The notes under the pieces: model-generated
Told to the model about the DNA's origin: nothing
Database searches by the model: none
The model's input: the letters and a program-made list of their open reading frames with translations, nothing else
Position numbers and translations under genes: made by a program
Shown here: one piece after another, positions 42,443 to 60,678 of the stretch
Numbering within the stretch: the first letter of the stretch is position 1
Layout of the letters: the number at the start of each line of letters is the position of its first letter
From: a virus
Lineage: Duplodnaviria; Caudoviricetes
Reading direction: 5' to 3' (one strand)
Length of the DNA stretch: 63,169 bases
Virus record (IMG/VR): IMGVR_UViG_3300009184_000047
Location: 1-63,169 of that record

Positions 42443-43057
42443 CTACCAAAACATATTTAATGCGCCATTAATCCGTATTAAATGCCCCTGCAATGTAATC
42501 CTATATTCGTTTGGCACATACTTTTTAAGGCTTGCCATCCTGTGAACTATTTCTCCACTATGTCCTACAATACCACCTTCTTCATATGGTAGATACCTTG
42601 GTATTCCATCCTCAATAAAATCCATACCACCCCCACCTGTAGGCAGTTTAATCGCTATTGTAAATGAGTATGGGTCTTTTGATCCAAGATCTAATGTTTC
42701 ATGCGGAAAGTCTTGATGCCATAACCCAGCATGTTCAAGTAAGAATGGGCTTGACTCAAAGATATGAAAGGAAGGGTAGGCTAATTCATTATTAAGATAC
42801 ACCTTCTCTTTAAAGTGATGAGATAAGTGATCAATAATGATACGATATGAAACGGCAAATTCCCTAAGTAAAATAGGGTTTAGTTTCTTGATGTCTTCTT
42901 TGTAGGCGGGTGTTTTGCCATCTTGATAGGCGTTTCTGCCTAATGTATGGAAGGAAAATTCATCTGATCTTGATACCCAATAGTCTTTAAGTTCAAAGAC
43001 TTTATCAGCTATCTTGTCAGTATCAATGCGTAGTTTGTGTATATCAAAAGGGGGCAT
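42443..43057 (-). CDS. 2OG-Fe(II) oxygenase-fold protein
   Basis: WHQD...SFT...GGG...HR...RITLQG, i.e. HxD...H...R spacing. Confidence 0.65.
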   Translation of the reverse strand: MPPFDIHKLRIDTDKIADKVFELKDYWVSRSDEFSFHTLGRNAYQDGKTPAYKEDIKKLNPILLREFAVSYRIIIDHLSHHFKEKVYLNNELAYPSFHIFESSPFLLEHAGLWHQDFPHETLDLGSKDPYSFTIAIKLPTGGGGMDFIEDGIPRYLPYEEGGIVGHSGEIVHRMASLKKYVPNEYRITLQGHLIRINGALNMFW

Positions 43058-43066
43058 ATAGCCCCC
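43046..43066 (-). terminator. Intrinsic terminator-like hairpin after pqqA
   Basis: Minus strand GGGGGC-TATAT-GCCCCC followed by TTTT. Confidence 0.6.
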
Positions 43067-43075
43067 AATTATACA

Positions 43076-43147
43076 TTACTTGTTCATTACGTACATAGTC
43101 ACTTCAAAGCCAAAACGCATTTCTGTTGCTGATGGAGTTGTCCACAT
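43076..43147 (-). CDS. pqqA: Pyrroloquinoline quinone precursor peptide PqqA
   Basis: MWTTPSATEMRFGFEVTMYVMNK* (23 aa), ExxxY core, AAAGGA RBS. Confidence 0.95.
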   Translation of the reverse strand: MWTTPSATEMRFGFEVTMYVMNK

Positions 43148-43348
43148 AATATTTTCCTTTGTATGTAAAAAAGATCTATTTTTGATACACAAACACCTTT
43201 GTATGTAATTTACTCCATACAAGCTAGTTTGTATTGAATATAATGCGCTTTTTGCTATACAAAATCCTCAGTAAAACCATGATAGATGCCTAATCCTATA
43301 TAATATTTAGTTATATACAACTATTTCTATATAACTTTTATATATTAC

Positions 43349-43377
43349 TTGACAGGTATCCACCCATTTGCTATAGT
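43349..43377 (+). promoter_or_regulatory. Near-consensus sigma70 promoter
   Basis: TTGACA-17 nt-TATAGT, with TGn extension. Confidence 0.8.
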
Positions 43378-43383
43378 TTCATT

Positions 43384-43502
43384 TGTGAGTCCCTTTCCTC
43401 ACACGATCCTTTACATTTGCTTCTCTCTCTCGTAATGGTCAACCCTCGGTGTCCCTCGCACCTTAAAAACCCTTAGATTAAAAACCTAGGGGTTTTTTCT
43501 TT
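43384..43502 (+). ncRNA. Candidate small RNA with anti-Shine-Dalgarno loops
   Basis: Bounded by a promoter and a terminator, no RBS-led ORF, three hairpins with C/U-rich loops. Confidence 0.6.
43465..43502 (+). terminator. Intrinsic (possibly bidirectional) terminator
   Basis: AAAAACCCTTAG-loop-CTAGGGGTTTTTTCTTT. Confidence 0.75.
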
Positions 43503-43509
43503 CTACCTC

Positions 43510-43538
43510 TTGCACAAATTTAAAAATAGGCGTATATT
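43510..43538 (+). promoter_or_regulatory. Sigma70-type promoter for the replication operon leader
   Basis: TTGCAC-17 nt-TATATT. Confidence 0.6.
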
Positions 43539-43544
43539 TATAAA

Positions 43545-43865
43545 TGAGAGATGTGAATGCAAAGGTGATAAGAGAACTATCGTTCTTTTTTCTCCTATCT
43601 ATTCTCATCTTTCCGTACTCCAAACGATATCAGAGAGCCTAAATGGGCTGCTTGGAAAAATACATAGGCCGTGCTTACACCCGCATGCGTGCAACCTCGT
43701 GAACTTAAATGGGTATCATACAAGATATACAGGACTGGGGTGACTTGCCTACTGTATGTCGAGTGAACATTAACTCTGTGTAGGACTGGTGGCACTGGTG
43801 TTCTCTTCCTCTGCTGTGGGTCAAAGGTGTTCTTCTCACCCTAGGCGGAGCTATGTCTCAAACAA
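43545..43865 (+). ncRNA. Candidate structured RNA / long 5' leader
   Basis: About 320 nt without a credible ORF, raised GC, several G-U-containing stems. Confidence 0.4.
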
Positions 43866-43887
43866 ATGAAAGGAGCTAAAAAAAAAT

Positions 43888-44061
43888 ATGGATTTTACCC
43901 ACGCAGTAGTAGATGACGGAGACATTATACGAAAGTATAGATGGTCCAAAAGAGAAGCTAAATGGTATAAAGATTCACATCCTGATATAGATGTGGTAGA
44001 GTTGCCTAAAGCACCAAAGGAAGTATTTAATATTAATGATTACGAGGAGGCACCATTTTGA
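43888..44061 (+). CDS. 57-aa hypothetical protein (not in ORF track)
   Basis: AAGGAG RBS; MDFTHAVVDDG...YEEAPF*. Confidence 0.65.
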   Translation: MDFTHAVVDDGDIIRKYRWSKREAKWYKDSHPDIDVVELPKAPKEVFNINDYEEAPF

Positions 44062-44270
44062 AGAGCGAACAAATAAAAACATTAGCTAGTGCAATTGTTG
44101 AAGGCATGGCAGCAAGAGAAGTAGAACAGTATTGTAAGAATCTAGTTCATGACATAATGAAAGATATGAATCAAGCGGATATAGATGAAGCTCAAAAAAT
44201 AGCATTAGAAACATTGAATGCTGATGTGCCAAGACTTGTAGATCCGTCAAAAAGTGAAACAATACATTAG
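44058..44270 (+). CDS. Hypothetical protein
   Basis: GGAGG RBS, TTG start overlapping the upstream stop. Confidence 0.55.
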   Translation: MKSEQIKTLASAIVEGMAAREVEQYCKNLVHDIMKDMNQADIDEAQKIALETLNADVPRLVDPSKSETIH

Positions 44271-44278
44271 GAATAATT

Positions 44279-44437
44279 ATGGTTGATACAAAGAAAACAA
44301 TAATAGTTGAAAATGTTTTGGTTAAGGGATATATTAAACACGCTAATGGTAAAAAGACTATGTTTGAATTTAACAAGCAAGACTTTAAGCCATCATCATT
44401 TGAGAAAATATTTGAGGAAGTTGGGAGTAAGTTATAA
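44279..44437 (+). CDS. 52-aa hypothetical protein (not in ORF track)
   Basis: MVDTKKTII...EVGSKL*; fills the gap in the operon. Confidence 0.55.
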   Translation: MVDTKKTIIVENVLVKGYIKHANGKKTMFEFNKQDFKPSSFEKIFEEVGSKL

Positions 44438-44664
44438 TGTATACAAAGCTTGATGACAATAAGAAAGCCGATATAATTAATTATTATATGAATGCTAAAC
44501 CTGATTGCACTCTTAAAGAAATTATTCAGGATTGTTATACCACAAGAACAAGATTGGCTTATTTAGAGAGATGTGGTCTTATAAAATTACCTAATCCAAT
44601 GCCATTTGGGTTAAGAAACAAAAAGTATTATGAAAACAAAGCCCTTCAATCAGCAAGTTCATGA
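44437..44664 (+). CDS. Putative winged-HTH protein
   Basis: TLKEIIQDC...LAYLERCGLI. Confidence 0.45.
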   Translation: MYTKLDDNKKADIINYYMNAKPDCTLKEIIQDCYTTRTRLAYLERCGLIKLPNPMPFGLRNKKYYENKALQSASS

Positions 44665-45052
44665 TGCATGTGATCCACCAGCAAGAGAAGCCGTAAGAAA
44701 ATATATCAAATCTACATGGGATTTAAACGCATGGCATAATCCGGATAAGTATGCAGTAGATTTAATTATAGAGAGAAACAAAGAGGCGATTGGGTATGCA
44801 GAGATAGAAATGAGAGATTGGGATCACTGTCCCTTTAACACCATTCACATTCCCAAACGAAAAGATAAATTATTTGATAACAATAAAAGGACTATATACT
44901 TTGTTGTGTCAAAGAGCATAAAGAGAGCTTGGTATGTAGATTCACAACTGATTAAAAATTCATCAGTGCGTGAGATACCTAACAAGGCAGTAAGTCAAGG
45001 GGAATATTTTTATGATGTTCCAATTAAGCTCTTCACACAGATCAACTTATAA
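44630..45052 (+). CDS. Putative PD-(D/E)XK-fold protein
   Basis: YAVDL...YAEIE motif. Confidence 0.5.
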   Translation: MKTKPFNQQVHDACDPPAREAVRKYIKSTWDLNAWHNPDKYAVDLIIERNKEAIGYAEIEMRDWDHCPFNTIHIPKRKDKLFDNNKRTIYFVVSKSIKRAWYVDSQLIKNSSVREIPNKAVSQGEYFYDVPIKLFTQINL

Positions 45053-45065
45053 AATAGAATTATAA

Positions 45066-45383
45066 ATGGGTGATATTGAATCAGAGTTAAAACATGCGCT
45101 ACAAAAGATCAAAGAGCTTTCTAATGTAATTATAGATCTTGATATAGAAAATACTAAACTCAAAGACATCATCAACTCACAGAATTGGGAAGCAAGTCCA
45201 TTTGAAAAGTTTTATATCCACCATGAGATTACATCTCTCCGGAAGCAGATAGAAAATCTAACAAGGGATCTACAAGCAACAACTACAACTCGCAATATGT
45301 ATATGAATCGTAATGCGGAGTTGATTCGTTCCAATAACGGAATGAAAAACTTTTTAAGAAAAAACAAACTGCAAATGCGGTAG
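45066..45383 (+). CDS. Coiled-coil hypothetical protein
   Basis: 105 aa with heptad pattern, upstream of the helicase. Confidence 0.6.
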   Translation: MGDIESELKHALQKIKELSNVIIDLDIENTKLKDIINSQNWEASPFEKFYIHHEITSLRKQIENLTRDLQATTTTRNMYMNRNAELIRSNNGMKNFLRKNKLQMR

Positions 45384-45421
45384 CCTAATCCAAGGGGTTC
45401 TTGGACATTGAAAGGAGCAAC

Positions 45422-46915
45422 ATGTTAGCACTACGTGAACACCAGCTCGGTGTTATTGATCAATTGAATAAGGGATTTTCTGAAGGCCATAGATCACAAC
45501 TTCTATATGCGCCTACAGGGTTTGGAAAGACTGAAGTTGCTATCTATTTAATGCATGCCATGGCAGAAGAAGGTTTAAGATCGGCAATGATCCTAGATCG
45601 TATTGTGTTAGTAGATCAAACCAGCTCAAGATTAGAAAAATACAACATACCTCATGGCGTATATCAAGCTAACCATTGGAAATATAATACCTACGAAAAA
45701 ATTCAAGTCTGTTCTGCTCAAACACTAGAACGCAGACAACAATTCCCTAAAATAGATGTGCTTGTAGTAGACGAATGCCATATCACACGATCGCAGATCA
45801 GCAAGCTTATTGAAAACAATCCGGAGATGAAGGTCATTGGCTTAACTGCTACACCATTCACAAAGGGGCTGGGTAATCTTTATAGTAATGTAGTATGCGG
45901 ATCTACGACAGATAGTCTTGTGACAAGTAAATGGCTTACTCCATTAAAGGTTTATTTTGCCAAAGAGATTAACATGGCCGGAGCTAAAAAGCTTGGTGGT
46001 GAGTGGTCTCAAGATGTAGTAACTGAACGTGGCATGCAGATCACAGGTGACATTGTGCAAGAGTGGATCAAAATGACACATCAAATATTTGGTATGCCTA
46101 AAAAGACTATTGTATTTTGTGCTGGTGTAGCCCATGGAGAAGACCTTGTTAGGCAGTTTGCCATAGCAGGATACAACTTTGTTTCAGTATCCTACAAAGA
46201 TAATAGCGAATATAAAAGAGAGGTCATAGAAGACTTTAGCAAACCTGATACAACTATCCATGGCTTGATTGCTACAGATATCTTAACTCGTGGCTTTGAT
46301 GTTCCTGACGTCATGATTGGTGTATCTGCAAGGCCATTCAGCAAGTCATTATCTAGCCATATACAACAAATGGGTCGTGTGATGCGTCCTCACCCAGAAA
46401 AAGAATTTGCACTCTGGCTGGATCATTCTGGTAATTATTTAAGATTCAGAGATGATTGGGATCGTGTATTTGAAACCGGTGTCCAAGAGCTTAATGAAGA
46501 GAAGGTCGAAAAGACCAAGCGTGAGCCTTCTAAACGTGAGAAGCATGAAGCTAAATGCCCTAAATGCTCATATCTATGGACGCCTAAAGCATTGCATTGT
46601 GAGTCTTGTGGATACGAAAGACCGGTTAATCAGTTTGAAGCAATAGCTGGTGAGATGTATGAAATTAAGATGAATACAAAAACATCTATGCTTGATAAGC
46701 AAACCTTTTATTCAGAGCTGCTCTATATTGCTCATGAGAAAAACTACAATCCTAATTGGGCTTCCCATAAATATAAAGAGAAGTTTGGCGTATGGCCTAA
46801 TCAGCTAGATAAAAAACTACAAGTTGAGCCTTCTATTGATACATTAAATTGGGTTAAGCATAAAACAATTGCATATGTTAAAGCAATGCAAAAACAAAAT
46901 AGGAGGTCAGCATGA
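45422..46915 (+). CDS. Superfamily II (DExH) helicase with Zn ribbon
   Basis: APTGFGKT, DECH, TAT, GFD and QQMGRVMR motifs, CxxC-CxxC; AAGGAG RBS before ATG 45422. Confidence 0.92.
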   Translation: MLALREHQLGVIDQLNKGFSEGHRSQLLYAPTGFGKTEVAIYLMHAMAEEGLRSAMILDRIVLVDQTSSRLEKYNIPHGVYQANHWKYNTYEKIQVCSAQTLERRQQFPKIDVLVVDECHITRSQISKLIENNPEMKVIGLTATPFTKGLGNLYSNVVCGSTTDSLVTSKWLTPLKVYFAKEINMAGAKKLGGEWSQDVVTERGMQITGDIVQEWIKMTHQIFGMPKKTIVFCAGVAHGEDLVRQFAIAGYNFVSVSYKDNSEYKREVIEDFSKPDTTIHGLIATDILTRGFDVPDVMIGVSARPFSKSLSSHIQQMGRVMRPHPEKEFALWLDHSGNYLRFRDDWDRVFETGVQELNEEKVEKTKREPSKREKHEAKCPKCSYLWTPKALHCESCGYERPVNQFEAIAGEMYEIKMNTKTSMLDKQTFYSELLYIAHEKNYNPNWASHKYKEKFGVWPNQLDKKLQVEPSIDTLNWVKHKTIAYVKAMQKQNRRSA

Positions 46916-47733
46916 GATTTGAAGATTTTGCCAGCAACCATGGTCTGATTCTAAAAAATTTGGTCACTGATCGCTGGGTGGCAACTCCCACGACCGATCA
47001 CCCTAGGAAAGCTAATGGACGATATAAATTTCTTGGCAGTATTGGTTGGGTGCAGAATTGGTCAACTATGGATAGACCAGCTCAATGGATTGAAGAGGGT
47101 AAAAATGCCTCAAGCCCTGTAATCTTAAAAAAGATAGCTGACTCTGAAAATGATAGGAAGATCCGTGCAGATCAAGCTTCTAAAAAAGCCGGTTGGATCT
47201 TAAAGCAATCAGAGAAGAAAACTCACCCATACTTAATTAGCAAAGGATTTCAAAACCAGCTGGGTCATGTATGGAACGATCAGTTAGTTATACCCATGAG
47301 GATCGATACTAGGCTTGTGGGGTGTCAACTCATCGATAACCAAGGGGTCAAGAAGTTCTTGAAGGGACAAACGACCAAGGGGGCAACTCTCACCATTGAC
47401 GCAAAGGGCTTTCCTATTTTCTGCGAGGGTTATGCGACCGGTCTCTCCATCAGAGAAGTCCTCAAAACCAGCAATATCAAGTATGTGATCCACATCTGTT
47501 TCAGTGCATCTAACATGCAATTCATAGCTAGGAAGTTTCCCTACGGACTCATCGTTGCCGATAATGATAATTCCCATGTGGGAGAGATTACCGCTAGGAA
47601 AACAGGCAAGCCGTATTGGATCAGCTCTGCAATCGGGGAAGATTTTAATGATTTTCATAAGAGAGTGGGAACTTTCCAAGCCTCTCAAGCTTTAAAAAAG
47701 AAATTAATAGAAATAGGTAGCTTGGTAATCTAA
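46912..47733 (+). CDS. TOPRIM-domain DNA primase
   Basis: CEGYATG, ADND and DFND motifs. Confidence 0.85.
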   Translation: MRFEDFASNHGLILKNLVTDRWVATPTTDHPRKANGRYKFLGSIGWVQNWSTMDRPAQWIEEGKNASSPVILKKIADSENDRKIRADQASKKAGWILKQSEKKTHPYLISKGFQNQLGHVWNDQLVIPMRIDTRLVGCQLIDNQGVKKFLKGQTTKGATLTIDAKGFPIFCEGYATGLSIREVLKTSNIKYVIHICFSASNMQFIARKFPYGLIVADNDNSHVGEITARKTGKPYWISSAIGEDFNDFHKRVGTFQASQALKKKLIEIGSLVI

Positions 47734-47748
47734 ACTACCTATTATAGA

Positions 47749-48129
47749 TCAATAAAAGTAAAGATTATTGACTTGGGCTAATAATGGCTTGTTAAACACA
47801 TTATGTTTTGGGCTGATGCGATTATCATGGAAAAACTGACTATGACCCACAGGGTTATAAGTATAACCTTTTTGTTTTGTTAAAAACTTAACCGCTAATA
47901 ATTGATAGGTTAAGAATGTTTTGCGATCCGGCTCTTTCATTTTGCCATTTTGCATTAAAGTAATGTATTCGAATTGCTTGGGTGCGTAGATCGTGTCACA
48001 TACTCGACTGATCGTTTTAGCTCTATTCATAACCACGTGATAGACTGCGATTTGGTTATTAAAATTGCTACCAGCTTCACCATATAAAACGTAGGCAAGA
48101 CACGCACTTGCAAGTTGTAATTCTCCCAT
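47749..48129 (-). CDS. SleB-like cell wall hydrolase (Hydrolase_2)
   Basis: CLAYVLYGEA...VVMNR...QF...FY. Confidence 0.8.
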   Translation of the reverse strand: MGELQLASACLAYVLYGEAGSNFNNQIAVYHVVMNRAKTISRVCDTIYAPKQFEYITLMQNGKMKEPDRKTFLTYQLLAVKFLTKQKGYTYNPVGHSQFFHDNRISPKHNVFNKPLLAQVNNLYFY

Positions 48130-48173
48130 ATAGTCTCCTTTTAGTTACTATGGAACGTCCATACTATCAGTAT

Positions 48174-48206
48174 TCACAAGGGTTTTGAAGCATACAACCC
48201 TTGTGA
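48174..48206. repeat. Perfect 11-bp inverted repeat
   Basis: TCACAAGGGTT-N11-AACCCTTGTGA upstream of the hydrolase gene. Confidence 0.75.
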
Positions 48207-48224
48207 TCTGTGTTAAAATAAGCC

Positions 48225-48419
48225 TTATGGCTTACCCCTTTCTCCAAAATCAGCGATCAAAACTACTAATTCATAGTCTCTGCTGAATTCCTTAATGGGA
48301 GCTTTAGTCCATAGATAAGTCGTAGCATACTTATAAATGCTAGTCCCACTTTTCTTCTTTACCTTATAGGCTTGGCACTTAAAAAACTCTGCCCCCTGTA
48401 AAGCTTGTTGTTCAGTCAT
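48225..48419 (-). CDS. Early hypothetical protein
   Basis: GAGGTG RBS, coupled. Confidence 0.55.
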   Translation of the reverse strand: MTEQQALQGAEFFKCQAYKVKKKSGTSIYKYATTYLWTKAPIKEFSRDYELVVLIADFGERGKP

Positions 48420-48639
48420 TTTTCACCTCGACTATTCTAAATGTATCACGATCCGGAACGTCAGACATATAATTATCATCTACGGCAGTTTGGCAATCAT
48501 CTAAAAATTGATCTAAAGCAATTTCAGCCTCTTCTTCAGTATCATAGATAGTTGGTATAGTCGTTCCGTCATCTTCTTCCGATGACCATGTATTAGTCCA
48601 GCCACCACACAAACATTCTTCTTGCACCTCATAAGGCAT
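48412..48639 (-). CDS. Early acidic hypothetical protein
   Basis: GAGGAG RBS; D/E-rich. Confidence 0.65.
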   Translation of the reverse strand: MPYEVQEECLCGGWTNTWSSEEDDGTTIPTIYDTEEEAEIALDQFLDDCQTAVDDNYMSDVPDRDTFRIVEVKND

Positions 48640-48797
48640 TATAATTTCTCCTCTGTATAAACATCTTTATATTTAAAAGTAATAACTAACATCTCATGTG
48701 TAGGATCTGCTTCGCATACTTTACATATCTCATTCCATACATCTTCATGATGAAAGTCATCGGGGTATAGCTTTAAATGTGCATATTCACTCATCAT
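48639..48797 (-). CDS. Early hypothetical protein
   Basis: Start revised to MMSEY after a GAGGAG RBS. Confidence 0.55.
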   Translation of the reverse strand: MMSEYAHLKLYPDDFHHEDVWNEICKVCEADPTHEMLVITFKYKDVYTEEKL

Positions 48798-48960
48798 TTT
48801 TCTCCTCAAGTTCTGTGCGTTTATCATAATTAATATCAGATAGCCATTCACTAAAGCTTCCACTTACATCACCCTCGCCAAAGTCTTTTGTAGTGCCATC
48901 TAAAAATGTTATCTTAATCTCTACATTATCTATTTGATTAAATTCAATCTCTTCACTCAT
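48787..48960 (-). CDS. Early acidic hypothetical protein
   Basis: Start revised to MSEEIEF after AAGGA. Confidence 0.55.
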   Translation of the reverse strand: MSEEIEFNQIDNVEIKITFLDGTTKDFGEGDVSGSFSEWLSDINYDKRTELEEKNDE

Positions 48961-48962
48961 AT

Positions 48963-49205
48963 CTAGTCCTTTCTCGTAAATTGACCATTGACACGTTTTT
49001 GAAAGTCTTCCCATGCTTCAGCATAATCATGGCAATAATGACCCCAAGTCGTAGACCTAGGATCTCCTTCAAAATACTTCCATGTCACATATGGCGTAAT
49101 GTCGTTAATCCATCGAGCTAACACTACACCATGCTTCTCATTCTCAAAAAATGCCATAACTTTAGCTCCGTTATGCAAAATATCACCTACATTCATCTTA
49201 CTCAT
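48963..49205 (-). CDS. Early hypothetical protein
   Basis: PYVTW...TWGHY motif; start revised to MSKMNV after AAGGAG. Confidence 0.6.
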   Translation of the reverse strand: MSKMNVGDILHNGAKVMAFFENEKHGVVLARWINDITPYVTWKYFEGDPRSTTWGHYCHDYAEAWEDFQKRVNGQFTRKD

Positions 49206-49464
49206 TATTGTTCTCCTTGTATTCAAGCTCTTCGTCTTTAGATTCTTTTAACTCTAACCATTCTTCTTCCAGCTCTGCATCGGTTAGCTCCTTAACTCCT
49301 TTGTCTTCCATGCCATTGTTTACTATATTCCATATCCAATTGTCATTCACGCTATAGTCTGACGTGATCCAATCGAATGCTTGTCGTGCTAGAAAATACT
49401 CTTTCTCTTCCCTTGTATATTCTTTATTGGCTTCATACTTTATTTCTGCATCATAATTAATCAT
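49198..49464 (-). CDS. Early acidic hypothetical protein
   Basis: E-rich, coupled. Confidence 0.6.
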   Translation of the reverse strand: MINYDAEIKYEANKEYTREEKEYFLARQAFDWITSDYSVNDNWIWNIVNNGMEDKGVKELTDAELEEEWLELKESKDEELEYKENNNE

Positions 49465-49618
49465 CGCTTCCCCCTTTATGCTTTCCTGTTAATAATTCTT
49501 CGTAAGTAACGCCTTTCTCATAAAAGTTTAGACAAGCACCACATAACAAGTCTTCCATCTCGCCTGTTTCTTTTATATAGTCTTCACTTTCACCGCACCA
49601 CTCGCAATTACTCATCAT
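49457..49618 (-). CDS. Early small Zn-finger protein
   Basis: CEWC...CGAC; start revised. Confidence 0.5.
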   Translation of the reverse strand: MMSNCEWCGESEDYIKETGEMEDLLCGACLNFYEKGVTYEELLTGKHKGGSDD

Positions 49619-49820
49619 CGTCCCCTTCCATTTGTAAAAATGAATCAATCACTTCATGACCCAATTCGGTTAAGCGATCTTGAATTTTATCTTCATGGTC
49701 ACTCAACCACTCTTCACACTTTTTCATTGTCCACTCCGGTTTCATGCATGAAATATCTTCAGCTCTCCATGGATTTGCACAATAAGCCCTGCCATGCCAT
49801 TTAACACTCATAATTTTCAC
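49608..49820 (-). CDS. Early hypothetical protein
   Basis: AAAGGTG context, GTG start. Confidence 0.55.
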   Translation of the reverse strand: MKIMSVKWHGRAYCANPWRAEDISCMKPEWTMKKCEEWLSDHEDKIQDRLTELGHEVIDSFLQMEGDDDE

Positions 49821-50052
49821 CTTTCATGTAAAAAATAGAAATTTTCCCTTCAGCCGTGCATTTATAGTCACACGCCCCCACCTACCTACCACAAGTCTCC
49901 GTGTATTCTTCGATGTCCAAGATCCGACAGATCTCATTATACTCTTCGACTCCGCCACTACTCATTCTTTGGCATTCCCAGCCAAGATCTAAAATAAGAT
50001 CTCGTAGGCGATCCAGCTCCTTACCAATTGGCACTTTAGTCATAATGATCTC

Positions 50053-50268
50053 CTAGTCCCTTGGATCAATAAAACGACCCACTTTAACAACGTGAGACAC
50101 TCGATCAATAGCTACTTGGCGATCTATAAAACTTCCAAGATCACGACCAAATGCGACCGCTTTAAAATTATTAGCTCCATTACATGTTACTTGACCAAAT
50201 ATAGTCTTTGTAGCCGGATCGTAACAGATATCGTTACTAGTCCAATCTAATACTTTATCGTTATTCAT
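50053..50268 (-). CDS. Early hypothetical protein
   Basis: GGGGAGAG RBS. Confidence 0.6.
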   Translation of the reverse strand: MNNDKVLDWTSNDICYDPATKTIFGQVTCNGANNFKAVAFGRDLGSFIDRQVAIDRVSHVVKVGRFIDPRD

Positions 50269-50428
50269 TGCTGACTCTCCCCTATAAAAGTAATGATTGC
50301 TTCTTCCGTTTTAAAAGATATTAAATCCGGATATTCACACCAAAATTTCTCTTGGGCATCGTGATAATCTTCGGCTTCAATTTCTACTTGATAAACAATT
50401 TTTTCATATGCTTCGATTAAAAACTTTC

Positions 50429-50647
50429 TCATACATAATGCTCCTCTGCTGGTTCAAATTTTGGCAACGTATCGCCATCATCGACTTCGACAAAAGCATA
50501 AGATAGCTTTATATTATTAAAAAGATCATCTCTATCCATAATACAAGCCTTGTCTCTTGCGATTAAAGCAGATTCCCATCTAGCACCGGCTTCCACTTCC
50601 AAGTCGATATAAGCATCAAAAAATACTCTTGTTTGAAACTTTTCCAT
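50429..50647 (-). CDS. Early hypothetical protein
   Basis: AAGGAGAGAG RBS. Confidence 0.6.
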   Translation of the reverse strand: MEKFQTRVFFDAYIDLEVEAGARWESALIARDKACIMDRDDLFNNIKLSYAFVEVDDGDTLPKFEPAEEHYV

Positions 50648-50681
50648 ATCTCTCTCCTTTGGTTACGATTATCAAATGATA

Positions 50682-50715
50682 ATCAGATAGCACTCGGTTA
50701 AGAATGCTATCGGAT
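50682..50715 (-). repeat. Intergenic hairpin D (divergent member of the early hairpin family)
   Basis: mRNA AUCCGAUAGCAUUC-UUAACC-GAGUGCUAUCUGAU. Confidence 0.55.
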
Positions 50716-50716
50716 C

Positions 50717-51217
50717 TCACTCGCTTTCTCTGCTTCTTGTATCTTCACCATATTTAGTAGAATACTTCCCAATGAAGCCCATACCTTCTTCTTCATAGTC
50801 GCATTCTATATCATAGTCATCATTCTGATCTTCAACGTCTCTGTTCCTGCCGTCCAAGTAGATAAAGAATTCAATTGGCGGAGACCATGCGGTATCAAAA
50901 TTTGCATAGAAAGTATCACCGGAGACATATGCTTCACCGGCATCAGTATCGATGTCCCATTTTGTTCCCCATTTTGCTACGCACCAATCATACCAATTTG
51001 CATACCCATACTTCTCGATATTGGCTTTTTCCTTGATCTCCAATTCCTTTTGCTTTTCATCATCGCTATATGATCCAGCTATGGTGTCTTGAAGATCTTG
51101 TGGACATGGATATAAAGTCTGCATGAAGCGACCGGAAGTCCATGCATCTACAAGCTTCTGTATCTTTGCTGAATCTTTGCTTGTGATTCTTAAATTATTA
51201 CTGCACCAATTAGGCAT
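50717..51217 (-). CDS. DUF1281 / YubB ferredoxin-like domain protein
   Basis: MPNWCSN...WYDWCVAKWGTKWD...FDTAWSPP...YEEEGMGF. Confidence 0.8.
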   Translation of the reverse strand: MPNWCSNNLRITSKDSAKIQKLVDAWTSGRFMQTLYPCPQDLQDTIAGSYSDDEKQKELEIKEKANIEKYGYANWYDWCVAKWGTKWDIDTDAGEAYVSGDTFYANFDTAWSPPIEFFIYLDGRNRDVEDQNDDYDIECDYEEEGMGFIGKYSTKYGEDTRSRESE

Positions 51218-51393
51218 GTAATTCCCCTTTCATTAAGTTTTCTAATTGTTTTCTAGCACCTTGCAATTGTTTAGCTAACATCTCATCAAAATCATTACCA
51301 GCTCGATCAAATAGCTCTACTTCTACATCGTGCAGATCACTCACAATGCTGAATAGTTTTTCTTCTTTTACTTTGCTATGCATCATTCTCTCC

Positions 51394-51882
51394 TTAAATT
51401 AAATCGCCATTTTCATAAAATTCATAGTCATTAGCATCGACCATGTCTTTGTAATACTCAAAAGTCTCTTGATGCTCCATGTCAGACTTTATACTTTTAA
51501 GACCAGCTTCAATAGCATCTTCAAAAGCACCTTTGATATTCCCATTAATCTTTACTGAATCAATAAATGCTTCTTTTAAGTCAAAGTAGACACAATAGCC
51601 GTCTTGATGGGTATCAATAAGCTTGATAGCTTTATCAAAATTTATGCCCCTAAATACATCATTAGTCGCATCAGTCGTAATAAAACATCTTCCGTAAGTG
51701 CCTATCTCATAGTCTTTTAAACCAACGCCAAAAGCATCAGCAAAAGCCCTGATAGATTTTATACCTTCATCTACCCAAATATACTCAAAATGATTGCTAT
51801 TGACGTAATTCTCCCAAGCTTTCTTTTGTGCTTCTTCAGATAGCTCATTAAAACTAAATACATTCAAAGATAATACTCTCAT
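51394..51882 (-). CDS. Conserved early phage protein
   Basis: FSFNELSEEAQKKA...ANDYEFYENG. Confidence 0.7.
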   Translation of the reverse strand: MRVLSLNVFSFNELSEEAQKKAWENYVNSNHFEYIWVDEGIKSIRAFADAFGVGLKDYEIGTYGRCFITTDATNDVFRGINFDKAIKLIDTHQDGYCVYFDLKEAFIDSVKINGNIKGAFEDAIEAGLKSIKSDMEHQETFEYYKDMVDANDYEFYENGDLI

Positions 51883-51913
51883 ATATTTCCCTTTCGTGAA
51901 TGGCTAATATCAG

Positions 51914-51946
51914 CCCCCAAGCTCCCTGAATCAAGAAGCTTGGAGA
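51914..51946 (-). repeat. Intergenic hairpin C
   Basis: mRNA UCUCCAAGCUUCUUG-AUU-CAGGGAGCUUGGGGG. Confidence 0.7.
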
Positions 51947-51951
51947 TAATA

Positions 51952-52329
51952 CTATGCGACTTGTTTATTATCATGTCCTTTACAAAAGAATCTAAACTCC
52001 GGATAAAACCCTTCGAAGAGCTTGATCTTATCCCCCTTGATGCCGATCTTCATAACCATGACTATATCGTCTTTGATAATATATTCATAGTCTTGACCAC
52101 AATCTTGTTCTGCAAAAGGCGGATAGAGATAAGTGTTACCCCAATCACCATTCTTGAGCTTTTCTACGACTGAAGCCGATAAGCATTCAATACCATTGTT
52201 CTTGGTTTCTACTAATACTTCCGCCAATTCCTGACCATGCACGGACGGAAAGCCGTCATACTGCCTATAAATACATACCAATGGCATGTCTGCATCGTTA
52301 TAAATATACGTTAATGACCTTGTTCCCAT
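51952..52329 (-). CDS. Conserved early phage protein
   Basis: MGTRS...IYRQYDGFP..HG..L...EYEY-type family. Confidence 0.7.
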   Translation of the reverse strand: MGTRSLTYIYNDADMPLVCIYRQYDGFPSVHGQELAEVLVETKNNGIECLSASVVEKLKNGDWGNTYLYPPFAEQDCGQDYEYIIKDDIVMVMKIGIKGDKIKLFEGFYPEFRFFCKGHDNKQVA

Positions 52330-52674
52330 GATTAAAACCTTTCTCTAATAATTGATTGAGCATTCCAAGTCCTAACAAGCTTAAAAAAACTAGCTTCTCT
52401 TTGAGTCCTTGGATCTGCAAAATGAAAGTAATTGCCACTGAAAAAATTGTTTCTTAACATAATGCGATCTTGCTTTTCTTTATCTAAACTAATCTTTTTC
52501 ATGATGATAATTCCCCTTTGATTAAAAATCCCATTCCTAACACCAGCTCAAAAAGTCCCCCCAGCCATTGACTTTGAAATATATCTATCGATCCAGCTTG
52601 AAGACATAGGATTGAGACGGCTAGATGTGCCGTCCCAAGTGTTAAAAAGATAATACTTTGGCGAGTCCAAAAGC

Positions 52675-52953
52675 TCATAGATCCGCCCCCCTTACTCTGT
52701 CCATAATATATTTAAACAAAATATACTTTGCGACATTCAGCTCTTGCCGGAGATGATTCTCTTCAGGCGTCTGATCGTCCGACTCCTGATAGCAAAATCT
52801 TTCTTGCAAATTAGAGAGATGACCAGCCAAGGTCATACAAGCATCATAGATCGACCCAGCATCTTCCGACACTAGATCATCGATCAAGCGAGACGGCATG
52901 CCGTAGCATTGCTTTTCCCATGCGAGAATCTCTTCTTCTGTTCTGACTTCCAT
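52675..52953 (-). CDS. Early hypothetical protein
   Basis: AAGGGG RBS. Confidence 0.6.
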   Translation of the reverse strand: MEVRTEEEILAWEKQCYGMPSRLIDDLVSEDAGSIYDACMTLAGHLSNLQERFCYQESDDQTPEENHLRQELNVAKYILFKYIMDRVRGADL

Positions 52954-52989
52954 AAAATTTCCCCTTTTCCATTATGGCTCAAAGACAAG

Positions 52990-53023
52990 CCCCCAAGCCC
53001 ACTCTTGTGAATGAGCTTGAAGA
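52990..53023 (-). repeat. Intergenic hairpin A
   Basis: mRNA UCUUCAAGCUCAUUC-ACAA-GAGUGGGCUUGGGGG. Confidence 0.75.
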
Positions 53024-53028
53024 ATGCC

Positions 53029-53394
53029 CTACTTATCACCCAGCGACCATGCGACCGACTCCAAAGCATACCAAGCCAAGCCATTATAGACACTAGTCCG
53101 ATCTTCTGACTTCGGATCATAAAGACCGGAAGCGATCTCATCTTCTGACATGCCTTCGAAGCATTTAAAACCCCTTAACATCTCCAAAAGACCCAAGCCG
53201 AAGTTTTCTGCATCGTCTTTCAGAGCTTGGATAATTAGATCGAAGTTTTTCTTCGTAAAGTCCAAGGTCTCATGATAATAAATGAAACCGGAGACCCCTG
53301 CAGAAGCTCCGCCTTGCATAATGTCCGGTATTGCTTCGAGAAATTCTTCCCTTGTTCCATACTGCTCGATGACTGCCTTTTCTAATGTTTTCAT
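53029..53394 (-). CDS. Acidic early protein, possible anti-restriction factor
   Basis: GVSGFIYYHET..F...LAWYALE; AAGGAG RBS. The function is inference only. Confidence 0.55.
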   Translation of the reverse strand: MKTLEKAVIEQYGTREEFLEAIPDIMQGGASAGVSGFIYYHETLDFTKKNFDLIIQALKDDAENFGLGLLEMLRGFKCFEGMSEDEIASGLYDPKSEDRTSVYNGLAWYALESVAWSLGDK

Positions 53395-53403
53395 GGTGTC
53401 TCC

Positions 53404-53625
53404 TTAAAGTGATTTAATTAATTTTTGAATGCCTTCAGCTGATCGAATCCAAGCTTCAGGGGCTATTAGAGACCCCTTCCACTCTTCAGAAGAGAGAATC
53501 TTCTCTCGATCTTCCACGACCCCAGCTGATAACCTTTCTAAAGCTTCATAAATAAAGCAATAGGTCACCGGATCTCTACGATCCAGCTCGGCTTTAATTG
53601 CTTGTGCTAGTGTTTTCTTTTTCAT
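53404..53625 (-). CDS. Early hypothetical protein
   Basis: AAGGAG RBS. Confidence 0.6.
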   Translation of the reverse strand: MKKKTLAQAIKAELDRRDPVTYCFIYEALERLSAGVVEDREKILSSEEWKGSLIAPEAWIRSAEGIQKLIKSL

Positions 53626-53854
53626 GCTTTCTCCTTAATATAAGTCCGCTTCATCATTCAAAAAACGACCTTCCCAAACTTCGAGAAGGCTTTCCTTGGT
53701 TTCTGCTTCCCAATCACTTTCAAAGCCTTCAGAGCTTCCAAAATGATCTTCTTTCCATGCTTCCAAAGCTTTCTTTTTGTCTTTCATGCTCTCTCCTTAA
53801 ATGATCGAAAACCGATCCCCAAGCTCACTCGATGGAATAAGCTTGGAAGCGATT

Positions 53855-54019
53855 CTAGTCTTCTTGGTGCTTGTAATATAGATCAATGAAAGCTTGTCCG
53901 CTTTCTTCGTCATATTGAACGATTTCCGGATCGCTGGAAGCCCCCAGCAAGTTTTCGAGTAGCTCCACTGCGGTTTCAAGATCTAGATCGTTGGTAGTGA
54001 ATTTTCTTGGCTCGATCAT
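53855..54019 (-). CDS. Early acidic hypothetical protein
   Basis: Start revised to MIEPRK after GGGGTGG. Confidence 0.5.
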   Translation of the reverse strand: MIEPRKFTTNDLDLETAVELLENLLGASSDPEIVQYDEESGQAFIDLYYKHQED

Positions 54020-54020
54020 G

Positions 54021-54185
54021 TCACCACCCCACTGCGATTTCTTCGCCAAACTCGACCAAGTCGCCCCTTTTTAAAAGCCTTATGGCTTCAGTCAGGGCTT
54101 CTTCTTCTGTCTGATATTCCCACTCTTCCGGCTTCGAGTGGATCGAATCTCTGCTTAATACGTAAAATTGACGTTGCGATTGCAT
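54021..54185 (-). CDS. Early hypothetical protein
   Basis: Start revised to MQSQRQ after GAAAGGGA. Confidence 0.55.
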   Translation of the reverse strand: MQSQRQFYVLSRDSIHSKPEEWEYQTEEEALTEAIRLLKRGDLVEFGEEIAVGW

Positions 54186-54249
54186 AGGTATTCCCTTTCT
54201 TTTTTGATTGTTAGATCGTGCCACATACTTTGAAGCACTGCTTTAAAGA

Positions 54250-54453
54250 TTAAATAGTGCATGTTAGATCCTTGTGCTTTTGGTAATAATAAGTAAGGTT
54301 AGAGAGTAAGTCGTCCAGCTCTCCCAGCAGATCGGCTTTATTTGATTCTAAAAGACTTAAGGCATCAGCAATCCTTCGCTTTTGCTTTTTCTTTTCTGCG
54401 ACCAAGTCCCTTAATCTTTCTATTTCTTTTTCTACTTCTTGAAGTTTTGACAT
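54250..54453 (-). CDS. First gene of the early operon, coiled-coil protein
   Basis: AAGGAG RBS; heptad pattern. Confidence 0.6.
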   Translation of the reverse strand: MSKLQEVEKEIERLRDLVAEKKKQKRRIADALSLLESNKADLLGELDDLLSNLTYYYQKHKDLTCTI

Positions 54454-60493: not shown

Positions 60494-60678
60494 GTGAATT
60501 AGATGCAGTAGTAAATGAAATTAATGCTCAAGTAGCAAATCTACAAGAACATTTAGGTACAGGCGCAGCCAAAGACTTCGCTGAATACCAAAATATGTGC
60601 GGAAAGATATCAGGTCTTCTATCCGTATATCGTTATATCAAGGACCTAAAACAACACATGGAGAACTCAGATGAGTGA
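60490..60678 (+). CDS. Small portal-adjacent protein
   Basis: Y...CG.I.GL motif; coupled. Confidence 0.65.
   Translation: MSELDAVVNEINAQVANLQEHLGTGAAKDFAEYQNMCGKISGLLSVYRYIKDLKQHMENSDE

What the first reader, a model, noticed from the sequence alone, without database searches (positions are those of the whole stretch)
43349..43502. Candidate multi-loop anti-Shine-Dalgarno sRNA matching the phage's own early genes
Seen: a near-consensus promoter, ~115 nt with no RBS-led ORF, then a terminator. The RNA folds into GUGAG-[UCCCUUUC]-CUCAC, CAUUUGC-[UUCUCUCUCUC]-GUAAUG and GGUGU-[CCCUC]-GCACC, with linkers AUCCUUU and ACCCUC, so every unpaired stretch is anti-SD-like. Early leftward genes have unusual RBSs that complement the loops: GAAAGGGA (51888-51895 and 54192-54199), GAAAGGGG (before 51217), GAGAGAGA (50649-50656) and GAGAGAA (before 51386). 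Late genes mostly use plain AAGGAG. Known analogy: C-rich-loop sRNAs such as staphylococcal RNAIII and RsaE block RBSs. Inference: an RNA switch that silences early (or host) translation, with different loops addressing different RBS classes.
Basis: partly seen in the sequence, partly recalled or inferred. Interest (0 to 1): 0.85.

Follow-up and report, generated by a model that had tools for sequence, protein, structure and literature searches.

The report
Phage small RNA targeting neighbouring leader
A small non-coding RNA gene of an uncultured phage is real and conserved, but rather than blocking ribosome-binding sites in general it is matched, phage by phage, to the first twenty bases of the transcript that starts right behind it and leads into the replication genes.

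Summary
The RNA gene is real. It has a near-consensus promoter (43349-43377), a ~113-nt RNA (43384-43499) with three hairpins, and an intrinsic terminator. It has no conserved ORF and no Rfam match. It occurs once per genome. A covariance model found it in 26 related loci with strong covariation.

However, complementarity to start regions is no higher than for composition-matched shuffles. The leftward genes also pair better with a generic anti-SD tail, because their SDs are simply stronger and G-richer.

The main new result concerns the middle domain, 43408-43427. It is antisense to 43546-43565, the first ~20 nt of a transcript predicted from a second conserved promoter (43510-43538). This pairing co-varies across 23 distinct pairs in the window's group and 21 in a divergent group. 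Cognate pairs beat non-cognate pairs in both, with 0 of 10,000 permutations as good.

The target is the 5' arm of a 5'-terminal hairpin. Behind it lies a large covarying leader domain, which in divergent relatives is Rfam's orphan Betaproteobacteria-1 RNA. The helicase-primase operon follows.

Best reading: a phage-specific antisense regulator of the replication-operon leader, resembling P1 c4 and ColE1 RNA I in logic. Expression and the direction of control are untested.

The parts
43349..43377 (+). Promoter P1 of the sRNA: TTGACA, 17 nt, TGcTATAGT (extended -10)
   Evidence: 11 of 12 matches, with TG. The -35 is invariant, the -10 is kept and the spacer is variable across 9 loci.
43384..43499 (+). 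The sRNA, about 113 nt. The start near 43384/5 and the end near 43497-9 are predicted, not measured.
   Evidence: Fold z = -4.9. Covariance model R1 gave full-length hits in 26 loci. 96.9% of cells are paired and 22 of 31 pairs change on both sides. One copy per genome.
43384..43403 (+). Hairpin 1, UGUGAG[UCCCUUUC]CUCACA. The loop is invariant in the window's group. Function unexplained.
   Evidence: 6 of 6 pairs covary across groups (GUGAG/CUCAC versus GUCAG/CUGAC).
43408..43427 (+). Antisense domain A (CCUUUACAUUUGCUUCUCUC): the 5' arm and pyrimidine loop of hairpin 2 (hairpin 2 spans 43405-43440)
   Evidence: Pairs with 43546-43565 at 18 of 20 positions, including 2 G.U (read). Co-variation.
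43443..43462 (+). Single-stranded CCCUCGG, conserved in both groups, running into hairpin 3 GGUGU[CCCUC]GCACC. Function unexplained.
   Evidence: Hairpin 3 has 5 of 5 pairs covarying.
43465..43498 (+). Intrinsic terminator of the sRNA (12-bp stem, 9-nt loop, U6). The minus strand also looks like a terminator.
   Evidence: 99.3% of cells paired and 5 of 12 pairs covary. Minus-strand echoes of the model appear.
43510..43538 (+). Predicted promoter P2: TTGCAC, 17 nt, TATATT. The start is expected near 43545/6.
   Evidence: One search lists a site with 9 of 12 matches here, read one base over (first hexamer from 43511, 16-nt spacer). The hexamers and the 17-nt spacing are conserved in all 25 distinct leaders examined and are invariant columns in A7 and A8.
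43546..43565 (+). Target T (GAGAGAUGUGAAUGCAAAGG): the first ~20 nt of the P2 transcript
   Evidence: The cognate duplex is -22 kcal/mol. Structure counts. G.U pairs far outnumber A.C mismatches, 31 to 3.
43546..43613 (+). 5'-terminal hairpin of the P2 RNA. T pairs with the CU-rich 3' arm T' (43591-43613), which the sRNA's antisense domain imitates.
   Evidence: 21 of 25 distinct leaders have at least 14 of their first 22 nt paired with a 3' arm. For the window, z = -6.5.
43613..43848 (+). Large structured leader domain ('type A'), absent from Rfam. It sits where relatives carry the Betaproteobacteria-1 RNA.
   Evidence: Conserved at 69-79% identity even in divergent loci. 93.6% of cells paired, 29 of 55 pairs change on both sides, 0 of 500 shuffles as good. 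No Rfam hit.
43888..47733 (+). The operon behind the leader: small ORFs, a weak PDDEXK-like ORF, a helicase (45401-46915) and a primase-like gene (46912-47733)
   Evidence: The scan reported no plus-strand terminator-like site between 43500 and 45000. It is limited to loops of 3-8 nt, and for that reason it also missed the sRNA's own terminator.

Best explanation
Window 43384-43499 is a stand-alone phage sRNA gene of about 113 nt.

Its middle domain (43408-43427) is an antisense element for 43546-43565. That stretch is the first ~20 nt of the transcript predicted from a second conserved promoter, P2, which starts 11 nt behind the sRNA terminator.

In the P2 RNA this stretch (T) forms the 5' arm of a ~68-nt 5'-terminal hairpin. 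The hairpin's 3' arm (T') has a sequence the sRNA imitates. Behind the hairpin lie a ~235-nt structured leader domain and then the operon with helicase and primase.

Shown here: the gene's anatomy, its conservation and structure, the A-T complementarity, and the co-variation of A and T through a hypervariable 'specificity' segment.

Inferred: the abundant sRNA (its promoter P1 is near consensus, P2 is weaker) catches nascent T before T' is transcribed, or invades the hairpin. It replaces the protective 5' hairpin with an intermolecular duplex. This most likely lowers expression of the leader and replication operon, through RNase III/E-type decay or by refolding the leader.

Because the matching segment differs from phage to phage, control is phage-specific, like an immunity or incompatibility determinant.

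My odds: about 0.8 that A-T pairing is the selected function, and about 0.5 that the outcome is repression rather than activation.
For: The gene. Promoter, fold, no Rfam family, one copy per genome. 26 covariance-model hits come from 30 sources. 96.9% of cells are paired against 81.1 +/- 0.9 in shuffles, and 22 of 31 pairs change on both sides, with 0 of 500 shuffles as good.

Pairing in the window: 18 of 20 positions, duplex -22 kcal/mol.

Co-variation in the divergent group.
- Alignment A7 (9 sequences): 88.9% of cells paired against 78.4 +/- 1.8 in shuffles (0 of 500). 15 cells change on both sides against 5.5 expected (0 of 500). Slid controls give 32-49%.
- 21 distinct (A,T) pairs from 24 viral contigs: own duplex -29.1 against non-own -20.8 kcal/mol. 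The cognate target ranks first in 15 of 21. 0 of 10,000 permutations do as well.

Co-variation in the window's own group.
- Alignment A8 (9 sequences): 83.3% paired against slid controls of 41-60%. 6 pairs change on both sides (8 of 500 shuffles as many). Covariation score 0.206 against 0.141 (6 of 500).
- 23 distinct pairs: own -23.5 against non-own -18.0 kcal/mol, rank 1 in 10 of 23, 0 of 10,000 permutations as good.

A third variant, L018, shows the same layout with yet another matching segment.

RNA level and strand: 297 Watson-Crick pairs, 31 G.U pairs and only 3 A.C mismatches in 16 cognate duplexes.

The target lies at a fixed distance behind conserved P2 hexamers and forms a 5'-terminal hairpin in 21 of 25 distinct leaders.

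The downstream leader is a genuine structured RNA. In 7 divergent loci it is RF02932 at 86-94 bits, against a gathering score of 49.4.
Against: There are no expression data. No listed sequencing run is on record as RNA, so both transcripts, their ends and P2 itself are predictions.

The direction of control is pure inference.

T is almost fully paired with T' in the predicted hairpin, which leaves no obvious toehold.

Exceptions exist. In L002/L034, the closest relative, T and T' have both changed and only about 9 bp (GAGAGAG) still match the unchanged sRNA (rank 14 of 23). L075 ranks 16 of 23 and L076 ranks 22 of 23. L019 and L073 rank 17 of 21, L024 ranks 8 of 21 and L065 ranks 7 of 21. The window's own pair ranks 5 of 23, behind targets that my script's 36-nt target windows show to be nearly identical to its own.

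Duplex energies ignore intramolecular structure. Alignment A9 is fitted to the model. The sequences were collected with patterns from conserved parts of the sRNA, which biases what counts as invariant, though not the A-T test.

Hairpin 1, hairpin 3 and CCCUCGG are conserved and play no part in this model.
Confidence: 0.7

Rival explanations
1. The RNA is a multi-loop anti-Shine-Dalgarno RNA whose C/U-rich loops block translation of the phage's leftward ('early') genes or of host genes, with different loops serving different RBS classes.
For: The exact complements sit in SD position before 4 of the 24 leftward genes called by my own ORF caller: GAAAGGGA twice, GAAAGGG once, GAGAGAGA once.

The early-minus-other difference in duplex energy exceeds shuffles: 1 of 100 mononucleotide shuffles and 0 of 60 dinucleotide shuffles.

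In G001, the phage's own divergent sRNA against its own block gave 4 of 60 and 1 of 60.

GAAAGGGA lies in start regions in 2 of 4 occurrences in the window and 2 of 4 in G002, both of which carry loop UCCCUUUC. In G001, which has another loop, it is 0 of 2.

Loop 1 is invariant and otherwise unexplained.
Against: k-mer complementarity equals that of shuffles.

The leftward genes pair equally better with a generic anti-SD tail.

The early-block energy itself is matched by 9 of 60 dinucleotide shuffles, and G002 shows no signal at 31 of 60.

In G002 the GAAAGGGA start regions belong to genes outside the equivalent block. The complement of G001's loop 1 is in 0 of 5 start regions.

The CU-repeat loop has a better, co-varying partner elsewhere.

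The host is unknown, so host targets could not be tested.
Confidence: 0.1
2. Cis-only model. The 'sRNA' is the 5' part of a long P1 read-through leader, and A pairs with T within one molecule. P1-started and P2-started transcripts then carry different leader folds, and the terminator acts as an attenuator.
For: A and T lie on the same strand 120 nt apart, so the co-variation fits intramolecular pairing just as well. In a read-through RNA, A would meet T before T' is made.
Against: The terminator is strong (12-bp stem, U6), conserved and covarying.

The P2 hexamers and their 17-nt spacing are conserved in 25 of 25 distinct leaders, and T starts at a fixed distance behind the -10.

A near-consensus promoter followed by a terminator is the usual anatomy of a free sRNA.

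The two modes may coexist.
Confidence: 0.12
3. The A-T complementarity has no function of its own. A is a duplicated copy of T', or the two form a DNA-level inverted repeat (a protein site or an origin structure). The sRNA's real targets would then lie elsewhere, for example in the host.
For: A resembles T', since both complement T. The locus lies beside replication genes, where origins and repeats are common.
Against: Complementarity is kept through a hypervariable segment in 44 distinct pairs. That needs selection or constant gene conversion.

In the window, A and T' use different bases opposite the same G and U positions of T (read).

31 G.U pairs against 3 A.C mismatches point to pairing of plus-strand RNA rather than DNA.
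Confidence: 0.06

Closest known systems
c4 antisense RNA of phages P1 and P7 (immI), and the related CI RNA of satellite phage P4. The P1 operon and the role of C4 come from passages of PMC8198154. The P4 details and the RNase P processing are recalled.
   Same: The antisense RNA is encoded on the same strand, upstream of the transcript it controls, rather than opposite it. Complementarity is short, not full-length. Differences in specificity between relatives define immunity types (P1 versus P7, recalled). Mutations near the target give escape (P1vir), which may parallel the natural mismatch variant L002.
   Different: There is no match to any Rfam model, C4 included (E up to 10). The sRNA has its own promoter and terminator instead of being processed from the operon transcript. 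There is one continuous 18-25-nt match at +1 to +20 of a ~340-nt leader, about 320 nt ahead of the first start codon, not at an RBS. No lysogeny genes were seen among the ORFs I scanned. A large structured RNA lies between the target and the genes.
RNA I / RNA II of ColE1-type plasmids. The review PMC5415839 mentions them in one passage. The details are recalled.
   Same: An RNA of about 110 nt with three stem-loops binds the 5' end of a long, structured, replication-linked RNA within a kinetic window. The matching segment acts as an incompatibility-like specificity determinant.
   Different: RNA I is transcribed from the opposite strand and is fully complementary. Here the gene lies on the same strand, 120 nt upstream, with 18-25 bp of complementarity. 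Nothing shows that the P2 RNA primes replication, and it appears to run on into protein genes.
Countertranscript-driven attenuation in pT181 and pIP501 (table entry in PMC5415839)
   Same: An antisense RNA binds the 5' part of a replication-gene leader that can fold in alternative ways.
   Different: That system is cis-encoded on the opposite strand. Here the hairpin at the tip of the 5' stem-loop is weak (0 to -13 kcal/mol) and is not a convincing terminator.
   Same: There are several unpaired C/U-rich stretches in hairpin loops, followed by a terminator.
   Different: There is no Rfam match. SD targeting is not supported beyond base composition. The main pairing element has one dedicated, co-evolving target.

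Membership tests
C4 antisense RNA family (P1/P7 c4, P4 CI; the Rfam accession is recalled as RF01695) | Sequence and structure match to the family's covariance model | tested here: not met
   cmscan of 42500-44500 at E up to 10 gave only three chance-level hits (snoR29, GibS, NsiR1).
C4 antisense RNA family | Encoded on the same strand, upstream of the target it pairs with | tested here: met
   A at 43408-27 and T at 43546-65 are both on the + strand. The target, however, has its own predicted promoter.
C4 antisense RNA family | The target sites cover the ribosome-binding site of the first downstream gene | tested here: not met
   T is at +1 to +20 of the predicted P2 RNA, and the first ORF of 45 codons or more starts at +344. 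The short frames inside T are not conserved; L008 changes AUG to AAG together with a compensating sRNA change.
C4 antisense RNA family | Matured from a longer precursor by RNase P | not testable with these tools
   ARAGORN found no tRNA-like element. No RNA data are available.
ColE1-type RNA I / RNA II | The antisense RNA is transcribed from the strand opposite the target's 5' end | tested here: not met
   The promoter, terminator and G.U pattern all place both RNAs on the + strand.
ColE1-type RNA I / RNA II | The target RNA is the replication primer | not testable with these tools
   Only its position beside helicase and primase genes and its large structured domain are known.
pT181/pIP501-type attenuation | Antisense binding lets an intrinsic terminator form in the leader | tested here: inconclusive
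   The apical hairpin has a U-rich tail but only 0 to -13 kcal/mol in 15 loci.
Anti-SD C-rich-loop sRNAs (RsaE/RNAIII type) | Unpaired C-rich motifs in several loops | tested here: met
   The loops are UCCCUUUC, UUCUCUCUCUC and CCCUC. In divergent relatives they are CCCACAC, UCCUAGCAG and CAC.
Anti-SD C-rich-loop sRNAs (RsaE/RNAIII type) | Complementarity to start regions of target genes beyond what base composition gives | tested here: inconclusive
   k-mers equal shuffles. The generic anti-SD tail shows the same early-gene bias. Only the early-minus-other contrast is unusual, at 0 of 60, and it is not reproduced in G002.
Betaproteobacteria-1 RNA (RF02932), considered for the leader domain behind the target | Match to the Rfam model at or above the gathering score of 49.4 bits | tested here: not met
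   The window has no hit. Nor do L011, L031, L018 and L007, which carry the window's type of domain, or L024. Relatives L023, L019, L020, L013, L026, L015 and L008 match at 86-94 bits in the same position.

The most novel reading that the evidence does not exclude
The sRNA and the 5' end of the P2 RNA form a fast-evolving lock-and-key pair that sets phage-specific replication control. The P2 RNA is not merely a leader. Its large structured domain (the window's unnamed type, or Betaproteobacteria-1 in relatives) would act in starting DNA replication, as a primer or origin RNA, and the sRNA would gate its folding as ColE1 RNA I gates RNA II. This would create incompatibility or superinfection-exclusion groups among co-infecting lake and ocean phages, and would give an orphan Rfam motif its first function.
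Probability: 0.15. Interest if true: 0.85.

Novelty: new variant of a known kind. Interest (0 to 1): 0.7.

Why it matters
Regulatory RNAs of uncultured environmental phages are almost unknown. In this case sequence comparison alone identifies both a new sRNA family and its target, and 44 naturally varying sRNA/target pairs serve as built-in compensatory mutants.

The hypervariable matching segment implies selection for private, phage-specific control. That is the logic of immunity and plasmid incompatibility, here found in phages that show no lysogeny genes among the ORFs I scanned.

The system also places an orphan structured RNA (Betaproteobacteria-1), and a second unnamed domain of about 235 nt, under sRNA control directly ahead of the replication genes. 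That makes their function testable.

The matched pairs could also serve as sets of regulators that do not cross-react.

Tried and rejected
- Expression evidence. No RNA holder was listed among 24 runs. The one run guessed to be RNA is probably DNA, and its contigs show nothing about transcript ends.
- RNAalifold on nine near-identical sequences gave 0 covarying pairs because they were too similar. This was solved by finding divergent members with a covariance model.
- A conserved phage target for the single-stranded CCCUCGG. The only shared site lies inside the primase gene. I read it as part of the Toprim domain's conserved-glutamate motif (recalled; one search gave only a weak, sub-threshold Toprim hit). 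It does not match G001's own sRNA. Rejected.
- An alternative partner for the freed T' arm. The best sites vary in place and are weak, -11 to -27 kcal/mol. In the window and L035 the best site is the first gene's RBS, which is only a hint.
- An intrinsic terminator inside the 5' hairpin: weak.
- GC skew as an origin marker. It merely follows gene orientation.
- Host or prophage copies. There are no helicase relatives and no sRNA pattern in 185,579 species genomes. The GenBank phage collection matched only the pqqA part.
- L009/L022 scored weakly with the model (E about 1e-3) and show no A-T match, so I left them out of the family. L012 was dropped as identical to L011.
- In one search, L083 and L098 (no terminator found by my regex) and L101 (no TTGC -35) were dropped before counting.
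- Gene starts come from my own crude ORF and RBS caller. It favours purine-rich upstream regions, equally for the real RNA and its shuffles.
Full report
WHAT THE WINDOW IS

The window is one complete IMG/VR virus record of 63,169 bp, estimated 99% complete. Terminase and portal genes lie at 54.9-60.5 kb. Virion-protein and tail-fibre-like genes lie at 0.6-4.5 kb and an exonuclease at 35.4-36.3 kb. A block of small leftward genes spans 47.7-54.5 kb.

A rightward operon runs from 43,888 to 47,733 and holds a helicase and a primase-like gene. I saw no integrase among the ORFs I scanned.

The finding lies in an 830-nt gap without long ORFs, between a leftward pqqA peptide gene and this operon.

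THE OBSERVATION

The promoter TTGACA-17-TGcTATAGT (43349-77) is the best promoter-like site in 42-45 kb, matching 11 of 12.

The RNA 43384-43499 folds into three hairpins plus a terminator at -29.5 kcal/mol. The z-score is -4.9, and 0 of 200 shuffles fold as well.

Rfam has nothing for it at E up to 10. The GenBank phage collection matches only the pqqA part.

The conserved hairpin 2 is a different pairing, CC.UUAC/GUAA.GG around a 17-nt pyrimidine loop.

A REAL RNA GENE

The helicase brought in 26 related viral loci. An exact 20-mer of hairpin 1 brought in 8 contigs.

In nine aligned copies the -35 is invariant, the promoter spacer is free to vary, and the conserved block begins at the predicted start. 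That is the signature of a transcribed gene rather than of a protein-coding or DNA element.

A covariance model built from six copies found full-length, same-strand hits upstream of the helicase. In the first search, 19 of 33 sources scored at E of 2.4e-5 or better. After more loci were added, 26 hits came from 30 sources.

On that model-fitted alignment, 96.9% of cells pair, against 81.1 +/- 0.9 in shuffles and 29-47% in slid controls. 22 of 31 pairs change on both sides, including 6 of 6 in hairpin 1 and 5 of 5 in hairpin 3.

Each of five relatives' records has a single copy.

There are two groups.
- The window's group carries loops UCCCUUUC, ..UCUCUC.. and CCCUC.
- A divergent group carries GUCAG[CCCACAC]CUGAC, an invariant UCCUAGCAG, the shared single-stranded CCCUCGG, and GGAUC[CAC]GAUCC.

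I called 108 ORFs with a crude caller of my own. Start regions with an 8-nt complement to the RNA body number 7. Mononucleotide shuffles of the RNA give 3.8 +/- 2.6, and 129 of 1000 do as well. Coding-window controls give 2.0. The RNA therefore likes purine-rich start regions no more than any RNA of its composition would.

The 24 leftward-block start regions pair better than the other 84 (-13.6 vs -9.6 kcal/mol, p = 4e-6). They do so equally with a generic anti-SD tail (-8.8 vs -5.6, p = 2e-6). They are simply more purine-rich and G-rich.

Against shuffles:
- The early-block energy was reached by 3 of 100 mononucleotide shuffles.
- It was reached by 9 of 60 dinucleotide shuffles.
- Only the early-minus-other contrast is unusual (1 of 100 and 0 of 60). 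Part of the reason is that the RNA pairs worse than all 60 dinucleotide shuffles with the other genes.
- Relative G001 shows a similar weak contrast for its own, different sRNA (4 of 60 and 1 of 60).
- Relative G002, with the same loop 1, shows none (31 of 60 and 18 of 60).

GAAAGGGA sits in start regions in 2 of 4 occurrences in the window and 2 of 4 in G002, though in G002 these are genes outside the equivalent block. The complement of G001's loop 1 sits in 0 of 5.

I read this as no real support, with a small residue that I cannot exclude.

WHAT THE MIDDLE DOMAIN REALLY MATCHES

Folding each sRNA against the DNA just downstream of it showed long complementarity at one fixed place.

In the window, 43408-43427 (CCUUUACAUUUGCUUCUCUC) pairs with 43546-43565 (GAGAGAUGUGAAUGCAAAGG) at 18 of 20 positions, two of them G.U.

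In the divergent group, CAC-AUUGUUUUCCUAGC pairs with GCUAGGAAGACAAU-GUG at the same place. Matches of up to 18 nt are perfect (L011). Changes are compensated on both sides. For example, L008 has CACUUUG opposite CAAAGUG where L023 has CACAUUG opposite CAAUGUG, and L026 has UUUACC opposite GGUAGA.

Formal counts, divergent group:
- Alignment A7: 88.9% of cells paired against 78.4 +/- 1.8 in shuffles (0 of 500).
- 15 cells changed on both sides, against 5.5 expected (0 of 500).
- Slid controls give 32-49%.

Formal counts, window's group:
- Alignment A8: 83.3% of cells paired, against slid controls of 41-60%.
- 6 pairs changed on both sides (8 of 500 shuffles as many).
- Covariation score 0.206 against 0.141 (6 of 500).

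Pattern scans gave more copies: 24 viral contigs for the divergent group and 27 metagenome contigs for the window's group.

Among 21 distinct antisense/target pairs of the divergent group, the own duplex averages -29.1 kcal/mol against -20.8 for foreign targets. The cognate target ranks first in 15 of 21, and 0 of 10,000 re-pairings do as well.

Among 23 distinct pairs of the window's group the figures are -23.5 against -18.0, 10 of 23 and 0 of 10,000.

The matching stretch has two parts:
- A constant seed: GAGAG opposite CUCUC in the window's group, and GCUAGG opposite CCUAGC in the divergent group.
- A hypervariable segment that differs from phage to phage yet stays complementary.

L018 is a third variant with the same plan.

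G.U pairs (31) far outnumber A.C mismatches (3) in 16 cognate duplexes. This points to pairing of plus-strand RNA, not of DNA or the other strand.

EXCEPTIONS, STATED PLAINLY

- In L002/L034, the closest relative, T and T' have both changed. Only about 9 bp remain with the unchanged sRNA (rank 14 of 23).
- L075 ranks 16 of 23 and L076 ranks 22 of 23.
- L019 and L073 have 14 bp and rank 17 of 21. L024 ranks 8 of 21 and L065 ranks 7 of 21.
- The window's own pair ranks 5 of 23. The 36-nt target windows printed show that several relatives have targets nearly identical to the window's.

WHAT THE TARGET IS

Eleven bases behind the sRNA terminator lies a second promoter-like site: TTGCAC-17-TATATT at 43510-38 (the scan lists a 9-of-12 site here, read one base over). 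In the divergent group it is TTGCAA-17-TAAyCT.

Its hexamers and spacing are kept in all 25 distinct leaders examined. The target begins 7-8 nt behind the -10, so it is the very 5' end of the predicted transcript.

On its own, that 5' end folds into a ~68-nt terminal hairpin. The target T pairs with a CU-rich 3' arm, T' (43591-43613). In 21 of 25 distinct leaders, at least 14 of the first 22 nt pair in this way, despite the sequence turnover.

The sRNA's antisense domain is thus an imitation of T' and competes with it for T.

Behind the hairpin comes a ~235-nt domain (43613-43848). It is conserved even in divergent loci and is clearly structured. 93.6% of cells pair, 29 of 55 pairs change on both sides, 0 of 500 shuffles match this, and slid controls give 34-44%. 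It is absent from Rfam.

In seven divergent loci the same position holds Rfam's Betaproteobacteria-1 RNA (RF02932) at 86-94 bits, against a gathering score of 49.4.

The scan reported no plus-strand terminator-like site between the domain and the first gene at 43888. It only accepts loops of 3-8 nt, so this is weak evidence that transcription runs on into the operon.

HOW IT MOST LIKELY WORKS (INFERENCE)

A strong promoter makes a stable, terminator-ended sRNA in excess. The sRNA binds T on the nascent P2 RNA in the ~45-nt window before T' appears, or it invades the hairpin. Either way it replaces a protective 5' hairpin with an 18-25-bp intermolecular duplex and frees T'.

By analogy with same-strand phage antisense RNAs and plasmid copy-control RNAs, I expect negative control of the leader and replication operon.

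Private, co-evolving specificity is what one expects if cross-talk between co-infecting relatives is costly, as in immunity or incompatibility.

I could not find a convincing induced terminator or a conserved new partner for T'. The effector step, whether decay or refolding, therefore remains open, and so does the sign of control.

COMPARISON WITH KNOWN SYSTEMS

The nearest in logic is the c4 RNA of P1 and P7. It is encoded in the same operon as icd and ant and is needed for full repression. P1vir carries a mutation near its binding site. I saw these points as passages of PMC8198154. Citron and Schuster 1990 I saw only as an entry in that paper's reference list.

P4 CI RNA and the details of ColE1 RNA I/RNA II are recalled. 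The review PMC5415839 mentions ColE1, CopA and pT181/pIP501 attenuation in passages that I read.

The present RNA fails the one membership test available, the Rfam model. It also differs in having its own promoter and terminator and in targeting a transcript's first 20 nt, far from any start codon.

Betaproteobacteria-1 does not occur in the main text of PMC5737381 (0 occurrences). I recall that paper as the motif's source.

I found no description of this system. One search listed 15 of the 71 papers that matched, none of them relevant by title or abstract. The term 'Betaproteobacteria-1' occurs in 3 unrelated papers. These searches are narrow, so this is not proof of absence.

VERDICT

The sRNA gene is confirmed. 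The anti-SD reading is largely replaced by a dedicated, co-evolving antisense pair that controls a structured replication-operon leader. Expression and the direction of control are untested.

Noticed in passing
window 43079-43147 (-), with a terminator-like hairpin at 43066-43050 (-): A 23-codon pqqA gene, encoding the precursor peptide of the cofactor PQQ (Pfam PF08042, 41.3 bits against a cut-off of 21.1). Its DNA is 79-92% identical to stretches of three Methylophilales/Methylophilaceae phages and one uncultured Caudoviricetes record. It also recruits very deep coverage from lake metagenomes. This is an auxiliary metabolic gene that hints at a methylotroph host.
   Followed up: partly
window 43156-43168 and 43196-43208 (+): Two exact copies of the 13-mer CCTTTGTATGTAA, 40 nt apart, upstream of pqqA. 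The first copy overlaps the pqqA ribosome-binding site on the other strand. There are no other exact copies in the window. They could be an operator or a duplicated RBS.
   Followed up: no
window 43613-43848 (+): A structured RNA domain of about 235 nt that has no Rfam family. 29 of 55 pairs covary in 8 sequences. It is conserved across divergent phages, including ones (L007) that have a different upstream element in place of the sRNA.
   Followed up: partly
L023:4479-4601, and L019, L020, L013, L026, L015, L008: Rfam's orphan Betaproteobacteria-1 RNA (RF02932, 86-94 bits). In these phage contigs it sits directly behind the sRNA-targeted 5' hairpin and ahead of the replication genes.
   Followed up: partly
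L002/L034 (helicase 98% identical to the window's), downstream of its sRNA: A natural mismatch variant. The sRNA is the same as the window's, but both arms of the leader's 5' hairpin are replaced, and only about 9 bp still match the sRNA. It could be an escape variant or a recombinant. L076 and L075 are similar cases.
   Followed up: partly
L007:9177-9227 (-): A hammerhead type I-like hit at 30.5 bits, just under the gathering score of 34 (E = 0.0012), in a related phage contig.
   Followed up: no
window 26348-34564 (+): One ORF of 2,738 codons among the structural genes. It was not examined.
   Followed up: no
window 60671-61081 (+): A GroES-like co-chaperonin gene behind the portal gene (PHROG 3188, E = 1.6e-11).
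   Followed up: no
window 47749-54453 (-): The leftward block uses G-rich SDs. AAAGGGG, AAGGGGA and GAAAGGG occur in 3-4 of its 24 start regions and in 0 of the other 84. That is a real difference in RBS style between gene blocks, whatever its cause.
   Followed up: partly
L075, L079, L093: Members of the window's sRNA group also occur in marine metagenome contigs, not only in freshwater ones.
   Followed up: no
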